Source: Octopus vulgaris
Lineage: Eukaryota
Direction of reading: 5' to 3'
Assembly (NCBI GenBank): GCA_951406725.2
Contig: OX597824.1
Location: forward strand, 37,634,001 to 37,698,000
Length of the DNA: 64,000 nucleotides
Shown piece after piece: positions 43,375 through 55,975 of this stretch. Within the stretch, counting starts at the first letter, position 1; every line of letters starts with the position of its first letter. The notes beneath the pieces were generated by a model. That model searched no databases. It had not been told where the DNA came from and saw nothing but the letters and a program-made list of their open reading frames with translations. A program made the position numbers and the translations under genes.

Positions 43375-43852
43375 TTGTCTTGGTATAAAAGATGGGCTAC
43401 AGCAAATATTCTACTCAATACCACAGATTTGCTTGTCAGCTGTTTGACCTTAACCAGTTGAGCATGTCCCTTAGGGGCTGACGATATGTGCATCTCTGAT
43501 CACGAGCAGAAATAGTGTGGGGAGCATCATAGCCGTGTGATAATAGAAATTCTTAGAGAATTGGATAATTCGCCTTTGGAAACATGGGTGGTTCGTTCAG
43601 CAGCCTTAAACAGCCCTTATTCAGGGATCTCTTGAGCGGGATAGGCTACTCGACCAGAAGAAATTTCTATCTGGGCCCCACTTGCAAGGTCATACGCTGT
43701 TTAACTTGATATGAGATCCCCATGTTGCGCACATATAGTTGTGATGCATGTATCTGGTGTACTCTTATCAGACGGGTAGTCATGATGGGTATACTGGGCT
43801 TCGTATATTTTACCCCAGTGTCATTTTGATGTCATGCACTGCTCTCTCACTC
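43375..43852 (+). mobile_element. Family D: non-coding (TAA)n-embedded element, slightly 5'-truncated
   Basis: Homologous to 50963-51511 and 55444-55975; ends CTCTCTCACTC(AAT)n and has TAA repeats on both sides. Confidence 0.85.
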
Positions 43853-44000
43853 AATAATAATAATAATAATAATAATAATAATAATAATAATAATAATAAT
43901 AATAATAATAATAATAATAATAATAATAATAATAATAATAATAATAATAATAATAATAATAATAATAATAATAATAATAATAATAATAATAATAATAATA

Positions 44001-44094
44001 GTGCCCTTATCAGACGGGTAGTCATGATGGGTATATTGGGCTTCGTATATTTTACCCCAGTGTCACTTTGATGGCATGAACTGCTCTCTCACTC
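44001..44094 (+). mobile_element. Family D, 94-bp 3' stub inserted in the tail of the previous copy
   Basis: Repeats the last 94 nt of 43375-43852 and is TAA-flanked. Confidence 0.85.
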
Positions 44095-44232
44095 AATAAT
44101 AATAATAATAATTAGCAAAATATTTAGGACGCAGCTCTGCAGTTTTCAAAAAAAAAAAAAAATGTAGCATGAATATATATACAATATAGCTGTATAATAC
44201 AAGTATATGTATGCGTGTATATCCAGGAACAG

Positions 44233-44457
44233 AAGGCGGCGAGCTGGCAGAATCGTTAGCACGCTGTTTACCGATATTTCGCCCGTCGCTATGTTCTGAG
44301 TTCAAATTCAGCCGAGGTCGACTTTGCCTTTCATCCTTTCGGAGTCTATTAAATAAGTACCAGTTACGTATTGGGGTCGATGTAATCGACTTAATCCCTT
44401 TGTCTGTCCATGTTTGTCCCATCTATGTTTAGCCCCTTGTGGGCAATAAAGAAATAT
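44233..44457 (+). mobile_element. SINE family A monomer
   Basis: GGCGGCGAGCTGGCAGAATCGTTAGC head through ..GTGGGCAATAAAGAAATA; flanked by TATATCCAGGAACAG on both sides (TSD). Confidence 0.88.
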
Positions 44458-54057: not shown

Positions 54058-54340
54058 AAATATTATTAGAGACAAAACCACTATTTTGCAAAACAAACAA
54101 GGAAAGACTTTTATCAATACATAAAATTTTAATAAATAGTCAAAAAAACCGCCACTACAATTGTTTCTTGTCTTGATCGACAATCTTCAGGTGAACTTCC
54201 AATAAGTCAGTTTCAAATTTCCTTGTTTGTTTTGCAAAATAGTGGTTTTGTCTCTAATAATATTTTATAATATTTTACTATAAAATTGGATTTAATCCTA
54301 AATCTGATTTTTTCCCTGTAAATTTGGATTTATTCCCTAA
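54058..54340 (-). mobile_element. Short element with a 48-bp perfect inverted repeat enclosing a hammerhead; Penelope-type terminal structure
   Basis: 54058-54105 is the exact reverse complement of 54218-54265, with the HHR between them and (TA)n on both flanks. Confidence 0.75.
54152..54194 (-). ncRNA. Minimal type-I hammerhead ribozyme motif
   Basis: Minus strand TCAC-CTGAAGA-TTGTC(GATCAA)GACAA-GAAA-CAATTG-TA-GTGG: canonical core, 5-bp stem II, palindromic stem III (ACAATTGT), GUA site and a short stem I. Confidence 0.8.
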
Positions 54341-54374
54341 TATTTATTATATATATATAAATGTATATACATAT

Positions 54375-54866
54375 ATTCTTTTACTTGTTTCAGACATTTG
54401 ACTGCGACCATGCTAGAGCACCGTCTTAAAGGGTTTTTTAGTCGGAGAAATCGACCCCAAGGCTTATTCTTTGTAAGCCTAGAACTTATTCTATCGGTCT
54501 CACTTGCTAAATCGCTAAGGTACGTGGACGTAAACACACCGACATCGGTTGTCAAGCGATGGTGGGGGTATAAACACAGACATAAAGACACACACACATA
54601 TAAATACACACACACAGACACTCACACACATATACGACGGGCTTCTTTGAGTTTCCGTCTACCAAATCCACTCACAAGGTCCCCCCCAGCACCGCTTGAC
54701 AACCGATGGTGGTGTGGTTACGTCCCCGTAACTTAGCGGTTCGGCAAAGAGACCGATAGAATAAGTACTAGGCTTACAAAGAATAAGTCCTGGGATCAAT
54801 TTGCTCGACTAAAAAGGCGGTGCTCCAATATGGCCACAGCCAAATGGCTGAAACAAGTAAAAGAGT
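54375..54866. mobile_element. Two headless SINE B copies fused back-to-back (minus 54375-54680, plus 54681-54866)
   Basis: The 3' halves point outward and are mutually complementary over ~180 bp. Confidence 0.8.
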
Positions 54867-55443
54867 ATATATATATATATATATATATATATATATATAT
54901 ATATATATATAAATATATCAGTATTCTGGGAAGCTTTTCAAAGATCATGTTCGCACCATGTTCTTTATACATCTGTGCGTATGTGCGTGTCTGTTTTTTC
55001 ACTATCTCAGCAAGAGATTTGATCAGAGAATATGTTTTGAAGCTAAAGAATTTGATATGTAATTACGTCACTATTTAGAATAGTTACATTCTGTTATTTT
55101 CACAAAAGTGAATGTTATTTACTTTCCTATCTTTCAACTTAACTTTCATACACAAGAGCATGTCTAATTGAATCCATCTTGGGATTGTCGATTTACTTAC
55201 CGGGTCAATAATATAATAAGATAAATAATTCTTTCTGTTATATGTATAAGGCCTGGAATATTTTGGGAAGGCGCTAGCTGATGTAATCGACTTCAGTGTT
55301 AAACTATTACTTACTTGATAATAATAATAATAATGATGATGATGATGATGATGATGATGATGATGATAATAATAATAATAATAACAACAACAACAACAAC
55401 AATAATAATAATAATAACAGTAATAATAATGGTTTATTTTCTG

Positions 55444-55975
55444 GATGCAATACCAGGCACTGGCTTTCATGGATTCTGATCTTAACTGATTGGAAGTGTT
55501 ATTTATGTACATTCTTTGTCTTGGAATAAACAAAGATGGACTACACCAAATAATCAGCTCAGTACCACAAATTCGTTTGTCACTTGTTTGACACCAGTTG
55601 AGCATCTCCTGTGGTAGCTAACAGTATATGTATCTCTGATCACGGGCAGAAGTAGTGGGGGAGCATCATAACCATGTGTTGAGAGGAATTCTTTAGGGTT
55701 TGAATAATTCACATCTGGAAACATGGGTGTTTCGTTCGTCATCTTTAAACAACCCTTATTCAGGGCTACTCGACCTGATGAGAATTCTAACTGGGTCTCA
55801 CCTTCAAGGTCTTGCGCTGTTTATCTTGAAATGAGATCACCATGTCACGCACATATAGTTGTGATGCACGTGTCTGGTGTACCATTATCAGACGGGTAAT
55901 AGTCATGATGGGTATATTGAGCTTCGTATATTTGTACGCCCGGGTAACTTTGATGGCATACGCTGCTCTCTTACT
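55444..55975 (+). mobile_element. Family D, older near-full-length copy
   Basis: Starts GATGCAATACCAGGCACTGGC, the same point as the 50963-51511 copy, and is flanked by (AAT)n. Confidence 0.82.

What the first reader, a model, noticed from the sequence alone, without database searches (positions are those of the whole stretch)
43375..55975. Family D: ~550-bp non-coding, TAA-specific retroposon, a candidate non-autonomous partner of Dong/R4
Seen: four copies (43375, 44001, 50963, 55444), all embedded in (TAA)n on both sides, with the sense strand reading TAA as for the Dong copies. They share one 3' end (CTCTCTCACTC-AATAAT). Two are 5'-truncated and two begin at the same GATGCA.TACCAGGCA point. 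I see no ORF and no tRNA A/B boxes. Known: R4-clade EhLINEs mobilise similar-sized EhSINEs, and R2 has SIDE derivatives. Inference: a site-specific non-autonomous element using an RLE retrotransposon in trans. Its 3' end does not match the UTR of the Dong copies here, so the partner or the recognition rule is unknown, and it would be a natural compact RNA template for targeted insertion.
Basis: partly seen in the sequence, partly recalled or inferred. Interest (0 to 1): 0.72.

Follow-up and report, generated by a model that had tools for sequence, protein, structure and literature searches.

The report
Non-coding hitchhiker of TAA-seeking retrotransposons
This is a very common 557-base non-coding jumping element, in what is likely an octopus genome, that sits mostly inside TAA repeats and likely borrows the copying enzyme of Dong retrotransposons, although it shares no detectable sequence with the Dong families examined.

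Summary
The four window copies are real. They belong to a dispersed 557-nt non-coding family: 29 segments in an unbiased 1 Mb, about 1% of bases. Flanks read TAA on the sense strand (5' flank 21 of 27, background 2.4%; opposite strand 0 of 27). The 3' junction has the same AAT phase as Dong/R4 LINEs (104 of 116). Copies are 5'-truncated or carry 5' duplications as Dong copies do, and none examined runs into an ORF. Five copies on four contigs are identical, so spread is recent. The sense RNA folds better than shuffles (z about -3), and the source sequence changed slowly. No tRNA head, Rfam family, ribozyme or sequence shared with sampled Dong ends was found. A Dong-like 3' hairpin is only a weak candidate: a Dong-trained covariance model missed it. 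Best reading: a non-autonomous retroposon moved in trans by Dong protein; partner, promoter and recognition rule are unproven. The scan noted this element before in another genome (e1-10333100).

The parts
43375..43852 (+). Copy 1, 5'-truncated (about positions 81-557 of the family)
   Evidence: 87.7% to copy 3
44001..44094 (+). Copy 2, 3' stub (about positions 464-557) sitting in the TAA array behind copy 1
   Evidence: 91.5% to copy 3
50963..51512 (-). Copy 3, near full length (positions 8-557); a T run replaces the first bases
   Evidence: 93% to the family majority
55444..55975 (+). Copy 4, old near full-length copy (positions 9-556)
   Evidence: 79.7% to copy 3
51025..51054 (-). Predicted 3' hairpin with GGGUA loop in copy 3 (family positions 466-495); weak candidate recognition signal
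   Evidence: predicted; post hoc descriptor match; not found by the Dong-trained model
43327..43374 (+). (TAA)n array 5' of copy 1
43853..44000 (+). (AAT)49 array between copies 1 and 2
50894..50962 (-). (AAT)n array 3' of copy 3
51534..51705 (-). (AAT)n array 5' of copy 3
55318..55430 (+). Degenerate (AAT)n array 5' of copy 4
55977..56014 (+). (AAT)n array 3' of copy 4
3605..6110 (-). 5'-truncated Dong/R4-like LINE (family A here), RT plus restriction-like endonuclease, frameshifted; candidate class of helper
   Evidence: RVT_1; best solved relatives are R2 proteins; 40 of 40 scored genome hits 100% identical
6338..8020 (-). Second 5'-truncated Dong family A copy
8040..8112 (-). 3' stub of a different Dong family (B)

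Best explanation
Family D is a 557-nt non-coding repeat that lies in (TAA)n arrays in the same orientation and phase as Dong/R4 LINEs and is likely copied into them by Dong-encoded reverse transcriptase and endonuclease acting in trans. Inferred steps: a source copy is transcribed from a fixed start, probably by a promoter within the conserved 5' half; a Dong protein binds the folded RNA, likely through its 3' stem-loop fold and a UAA read-through tail rather than through a copied Dong 3' UTR; the endonuclease nicks the TTA strand of an array; target-primed reverse transcription starts at the fixed 3' end and either stops early (5' truncation) or jumps at the template end (tandem copies of the first bases). 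I put trans-mobilisation by Dong at about 0.85 and the full statement, with recognition lacking a sequence-matched partner, at about 0.5.
For: Shown. Target: sense-strand TAA 5' in 21 of 27 and 3' in 20 of 22 unbiased segments, TTA 5' in 0 of 27. 3' junction AAT in 104 of 116 copies, against 15 of 16 for Dong A and 33 of 37 for Dong B. An abundant SINE-like control family shows the opposite polarity: TTA behind 13 of 24 3' ends, TAA behind 1 of 24. The other RT-encoding LINE-like ends read in the sample end in other repeats or in none. Fixed 3' end (22 of 29 at 552-557) with variable 5' ends and a pile-up at 1-3 (10 of 29), and at 1-2 in 12 of 29 loci chosen by the 3' end. Extra copies of the first bases upstream in 10 of 51 full-length D ends and 7 of 11 Dong B ends. 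Recent spread of both: five identical D copies on four contigs; near-identical Dong A and F copies. Sense fold z -3.33 and -2.99, antisense z +1.23. The majority of the 20 oldest copies differs from the youngest at 12 of 557 sites, none in 1-252, while those copies are 9.4% from their own majority. Literature: Dong targets (TAA)n in most insects, molluscs and cnidarians (PMC7998251, passages).
Against: No sequence shared with any sampled Dong 3' end (best E 0.25, 24 nt, in coding sequence) or with the 5' UTRs of families A, B and F. The covariance model of the Dong 3' hairpin found Dong UTRs but 0 of 4 window copies and no D hairpin in 27 loci. A hand descriptor matches D once only after a bulge is allowed, matches just 9 of 18 training hairpins, and hits 135 of 2000 shuffles. 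Selection on pairing is weak once mutation type is controlled (T>C p 0.03-0.04, G>A and transversions not significant). Only about nine multi-member Dong 3' classes were sampled, while 51 Dong-R4 consensus families are listed for Octopus vulgaris (PMC13282606, supplement row). A shared phase has a one-in-three chance by itself. No promoter was identified.
Confidence: 0.5

Rival explanations
1. D is an internally deleted (SIDE-like, bipartite) derivative, or tail-sharing partner, of a Dong family that was not sampled or is now rare, so recognition is the ordinary stringent kind.
For: Same target, phase and junction features as Dong. Sampling was partial: about 2 Mb, roughly nine 3' classes and three 5' UTRs, against 51 listed consensus families (PMC13282606 supplement). 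R2 SIDEs (PMC3414825, abstract) and EhSINE1 with about 70 bp overlap with EhLINE1 (PMC2996970, passages) are precedents.
Against: D is spreading now, so its helper should be among the young families, and the two youngest seen here (A, F) and the commonest (B) share no end with it. No recurring upstream junction at the 3' part appeared among the loose ends shown for four runs (list cut by the tool). No remnant of a Dong C-terminus is in D (189 of 300 shuffles score as well).
Confidence: 0.3
2. D is moved by an APE-type LINE (RTE, CR1/L2, Tx1) that adds AAT tails and favours such repeats.
For: Some APE LINEs end in short repeats, for example the I element in TAA (PMC3747384, passage). Another SINE-like family here is also tied to the same microsatellite.
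Against: Arrays lie on both sides of D, in Dong polarity; the control family has the opposite polarity. The 3' ends of other RT-encoding elements read are not AAT and do not resemble D. Only a handful were read.
Confidence: 0.08
3. D is the retrocopy cloud of a conserved host non-coding RNA gene that Dong proteins pick up repeatedly; the constraint reflects a host function.
For: Slow change of the source sequence and none in its first 252 nt; strand-specific folding; near-identical sequence in runs with several organism labels.
Against: No Rfam family at E up to 10. Successive diagnostic changes across age classes fit a replicating element. Nearly all full-length copies seen are in TAA arrays, with no upstream promoter-like unique flank shared among them.
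Confidence: 0.1

Closest known systems
EhSINE1 of Entamoeba histolytica (partner of the RLE-type EhLINE1)
   Same: 500-600 nt, no ORF, no identified small-RNA precursor or clear Pol III boxes (PMC2996970, passages); thought to use an RLE-type LINE.
   Different: EhSINE1 shares about 70 bp with EhLINE1 and has no specific target sequence (PMC2996970, PMC1635306, passages). D has a strong (TAA)n target and no shared tail found.
R2 SIDEs of Drosophila
   Same: Short, site-specific, non-autonomous, dependent on an RLE-type LINE; variable 5' junctions (PMC3414825, abstract).
   Different: SIDEs consist of the R2 ribozyme and the R2 or R1 3' end. D shows no ribozyme and no parent-derived ends, and it is far more abundant.
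Bipartite ORF-less non-autonomous LINEs (RTE, Ingi, Vingi, R2 clades)
   Same: Non-coding, fixed 5' start, no tRNA head.
   Different: Kojima 2018 lists only those four clades (PMC5786205, passage; 'Dong' does not occur in its text). Bipartite origin was not shown for D.
Dong elements of the R4 clade (Bombyx Dong; 'Dong-R4' of octopus annotations)
   Same: (TAA)n target, polarity, AAT phase, 5' truncation and 5' duplications.
   Different: D encodes nothing and shares no detected sequence. Bombyx Dong has a self-cleaving HDV-like 5' ribozyme (PMC3774820, passages); none was found in D.
tRNA-derived octopus SINEs (tRNA-Core, tRNA-Deu)
   Same: Short, abundant, non-coding, next to AAT/ATT repeats.
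   Different: D has no tRNA head, and the abundant control family of the window has the opposite repeat polarity. That the control family is of this type is my recalled reading, not a test.

Membership tests
Non-autonomous non-LTR retroposon | Dispersed, discrete, no coding capacity | tested here: met
   19 of 100 unbiased loci hold a copy; longest frame 59 codons
Non-autonomous non-LTR retroposon | Fixed 3' end with 5' truncations (TPRT signature) | tested here: met
   22 of 29 ends at 552-557; starts spread from 1 to 515 with 10 at 1-3
Non-autonomous non-LTR retroposon | Target-site duplication or defined empty site | tested here: inconclusive
   Both flanks are repeats; the contig lay on L224 skipped the repeats and gave no empty-site join
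Classical SINE (Pol III, small-RNA head) | tRNA, 7SL, 5S or snRNA-derived head with A/B boxes | tested here: not met
Stringent SINE/LINE pair (EhSINE/EhLINE type) | 3' tail homologous to partner LINE | tested here: not met
   No match among sampled Dong ends; sampling partial, so an unsampled partner remains possible
R2 SIDE / bipartite derivative | 5' end of the parent LINE | tested here: not met
   Families A, B, F compared; other families' 5' ends not obtained
R2 SIDE / bipartite derivative | [quoted passage not shown] | tested here: inconclusive
   No hit by Rfam or own descriptor, but neither method had a positive control that fired; no cleavage assay
Dong/R4-mobilised element | Insertion into (TAA)n in Dong polarity and phase | tested here: met
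Dong/R4-mobilised element | Conserved Dong 3' stem-loop | tested here: inconclusive
   Covariance model negative; post hoc descriptor positive at about 7% chance
Dong/R4-mobilised element | Reverse transcription of the RNA by Dong protein | not testable with these tools
   needs an in vitro or cell assay
Hammerhead retrozyme | Hammerhead core and tandem monomers | tested here: not met
   No Rfam hit; two CUGANGA words but no matching [CU]GAAA[CU] word; permuted forms not modelled
Long 3' UTR of a LINE | Longer copies continue into an ORF | tested here: not met
   0 of 29 and 0 of 29

The most novel reading that the evidence does not exclude
D is a microsatellite-specific, SINE-like parasite of Dong/R4 LINEs with tens of thousands of copies, built from neither a small-RNA head nor LINE ends. 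It is recognised by RNA shape or a UAA tail alone and carries its own promoter or processing element of an undescribed kind in its invariant 5' half. This would show that a site-specific RLE protein accepts a foreign 557-nt template.
Probability: 0.4. Interest if true: 0.72.

Novelty: new variant of a known kind. Interest (0 to 1): 0.5.

Why it matters
Non-autonomous partners of RLE-type LINEs in the papers read keep a piece of the parent (R2 SIDEs, EhSINE1). A still-spreading family covering about 1% of a large animal genome, with Dong's target but no Dong-derived end, would give a direct test of how R4-clade proteins choose a template, and would explain part of the stacked TAA arrays in this genome. 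Its value as an insertion tool is limited, because the target is a common repeat and not a single site. The family may already sit unnamed in repeat libraries: 893 unclassified SINE families with recent insertions are listed for O. vulgaris (PMC13282606, Table 1), and I could not see those library sequences.

Tried and rejected
Rfam scans of window 50940-56000, L028, L214/L192/L073 and L218 gave only low-complexity or chance hits. HDV and hammerhead descriptors: 0 hits in 3 D copies and in Dong A and B 5' ends; the relaxed form hit 8 of 30 shuffles and had no positive control. A by-eye likeness of D's 3' hairpin to Dong hairpins was not upheld by model R1. A by-eye likeness of D 305-328 to a Dong C-terminus was rejected. 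A first sign of selection on pairing (shared changes keep pairs in 87 of 189, private ones in 39 of 218) mostly vanished under control for mutation type. An old copy (L116) used as query returned young, majority-like copies, so no separate ancient subfamily was found. A recurrent loose end turned out to be a separate short repeat that holds D 104-273, not a partner LINE. Expression: no RNA holder listed; all laid runs were contigs, which cannot show a discrete RNA. The empty-site test failed. No excess of A>G over T>C changes (222 versus 207). A 26-nt motif had 0 matches in metagenome contigs. A look-up of earlier findings by sequence gave nothing. Nine literature searches listed no paper describing a Dong-mobilised non-autonomous element or this family; the library lacks most subscription journals and Repbase/Dfam entries.

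Full report
Observation. The window holds four copies at 43375-43852 (+), 44001-44094 (+), 50963-51512 (-) and 55444-55975 (+). They end alike and are followed by AAT repeats. The genome is 2.8 Gb in 227 contigs; an octopus is my inference from its size and repeat content, and the species was not determined. A search with copy 3 gave 8,584 first-look candidates, of which 40 were scored. The longest stop-free frame is 59 codons.

Unbiased sample. I took 100 stretches of 10 kb at fixed positions (10, 20, 30, 40, 50 Mb) on contigs 1-20. They hold 29 segments in 19 of 100 loci, 1.0% of bases. Scaled up this is roughly 50,000-80,000 copies; the figure is rough because copies cluster and small contigs were not sampled. 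Of 29 segments, 22 end at 552-557 and 10 start at 1-3. Of 27 with a readable 5' flank, 21 have TAA repeats within 30 nt (17 directly), none has TTA, and the background is 2.4%. Of 22 complete 3' ends, 20 are followed by TAA repeats. In 29 further loci chosen only by the last 96 nt, 12 start at 1-2, 22 have TAA upstream, and none continues into a Dong ORF. The long-3'-UTR reading is therefore not upheld.

Age. Identity to the majority runs from 77 to 98% in the unbiased sample. Five copies on four contigs are identical, and 16 of 435 pairs among 30 young loci are identical. Among 157 copies of 300 nt or more (a non-random set), the majority of the 20 oldest differs from the youngest sequence at 12 sites, all between 253 and 542, while those copies are on average 9.4% from their own majority. 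By arithmetic, 12 of 12 falling past position 252 has a chance near 0.001, with the boundary chosen after the fact. I infer constraint on the source sequence, strongest in the 5' half. Contigs of six public runs with five organism labels were laid and cover the element.

The Dong elements. The window's LINE fragments encode RT and a CCHC plus PD..D endonuclease-like region seen in the sequence; their best solved relatives are R2 proteins. I call them Dong from this and from their TAA target (PMC7998251, passages); no tree was built. The fetched DNA holds about nine multi-member 3'-end classes plus singletons; families A and B are 52% identical in protein. Families A and F have many copies identical or nearly so to the query. 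D shares their junction type: AAT follows 104 of 116 D ends, 15 of 16 A ends and 33 of 37 B ends, and extra copies of the first bases precede 10 of 51 full-length D starts and 7 of 11 B starts. As a control, the commonest SINE-like family of the window has TTA behind 13 of 24 3' ends and TAA behind 1, and the other RT-encoding elements read end differently.

Search for a partner. D matches no sampled Dong 3' end (best E 0.25) and none of the 5' UTRs of A, B or F. The 5' ends of the other families were not obtained. The O. vulgaris annotation lists 51 Dong-R4 consensus families and five recently active ones (PMC13282606: first third of the text, passages, one supplement row), so a matched partner is not excluded. 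Six Dong families share a covarying 3' stem-loop (81% of cells paired, 0 of 500 shuffles; related sequences can inflate this). D has a predicted hairpin of similar look at 466-495. A covariance model trained on the Dong hairpins found Dong UTRs but no D copy. A descriptor loosened after the fact matches D at that single place and in 69 of 93 copies, but also 135 of 2000 shuffles and only 9 of 18 training hairpins. This is weak.

RNA anatomy. The sense strand folds better than shuffles (z -3.33 for L012, -2.99 for L214); the antisense strand of L012 does not (z +1.23). Covariation support is weak after control for mutation type. No tRNA, Rfam family, HDV-like or hammerhead fold was detected; the ribozyme tests had no positive control that fired, although Bombyx Dong has such a ribozyme (PMC3774820, passages). 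How D is transcribed from a fixed start is unexplained; an internal promoter in the invariant 5' half is my inference.

Mechanism and rivals. Shown: discreteness, lack of coding, target, polarity, phase, truncation pattern, recent spread. Inferred: use of Dong protein in trans (about 0.85), recognition without a copied Dong tail (full statement 0.5). Rivals: an unsampled matched Dong parent (0.3), a host RNA gene repeatedly retrocopied (0.1), an APE-type helper (0.08).

Comparison. It works like EhSINE1 (PMC2996970, PMC1635306, passages) and R2 SIDEs (PMC3414825, abstract), but fails their defining feature of parent-derived ends among the families tested, and it fails the Pol III head test for classical SINEs. 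Kojima 2018 names only RTE, Ingi, Vingi and R2 as sources of bipartite ORF-less derivatives (PMC5786205, passages). Other papers seen as passages: PMC9115989, PMC8967140, PMC3747384. Nine searches listed no description of this family; repeat databases were not available. An earlier unchecked note of this scan (e1-10333100) describes what appears to be the same element in another genome, and e1-9809270 describes the Dong hairpin; I reached both points before seeing them, and they are not independent evidence.

Verdict. A real, abundant, recently spreading non-coding retroposon; a new variant of a known kind; interest 0.5.

Noticed in passing
L292-L303 (around 1120-1620 of the oriented loci): A separate repeat of about 500 bp with inverted ends, MITE-like, carries D positions 104-273 inside it; its 20-nt marker occurs 406 times in the genome.
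   Followed up: partly
L218:2087-2200 (+), L272, L028: The 5' end of Dong family F shows HDV-like motifs by eye; Rfam gave no ribozyme hit. Families A and F share a short motif near their starts.
   Followed up: partly
A2 alignment; window 3633-3677, 6366-6410, 8067-8112 (-): Six Dong families with unalignable UTRs share a covarying 3' stem-loop with a 3x1 internal loop.
   Followed up: yes
L187-L195: Full-length Dong B has a very short leader whose first 23 nt or so are repeated up to nine times in tandem at the 5' junction. Two copies lie within 40 kb of contig ends.
   Followed up: partly
L121:4430-5250, L011:960-1500: Runs of several D fragments stacked in one array, or tandem repeats of the first 139 nt, suggest repeated insertion or template jumps.
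   Followed up: no
window 18483-18821: Old Dong-like fragment, 46% identical in protein to family A.
   Followed up: no
window 9541-9960, 14412-14778, 20610-21157, 38712-39111, 44233-44456 and others: Abundant SINE-like repeats; this family is tied to the same microsatellite in the opposite polarity to D and Dong.
   Followed up: partly
L112:159-3596 (-): Intact-looking 1146-codon ORF with AP endonuclease, RT and zf-RVT; related copies lie beside (ATCT)n repeats.
   Followed up: no
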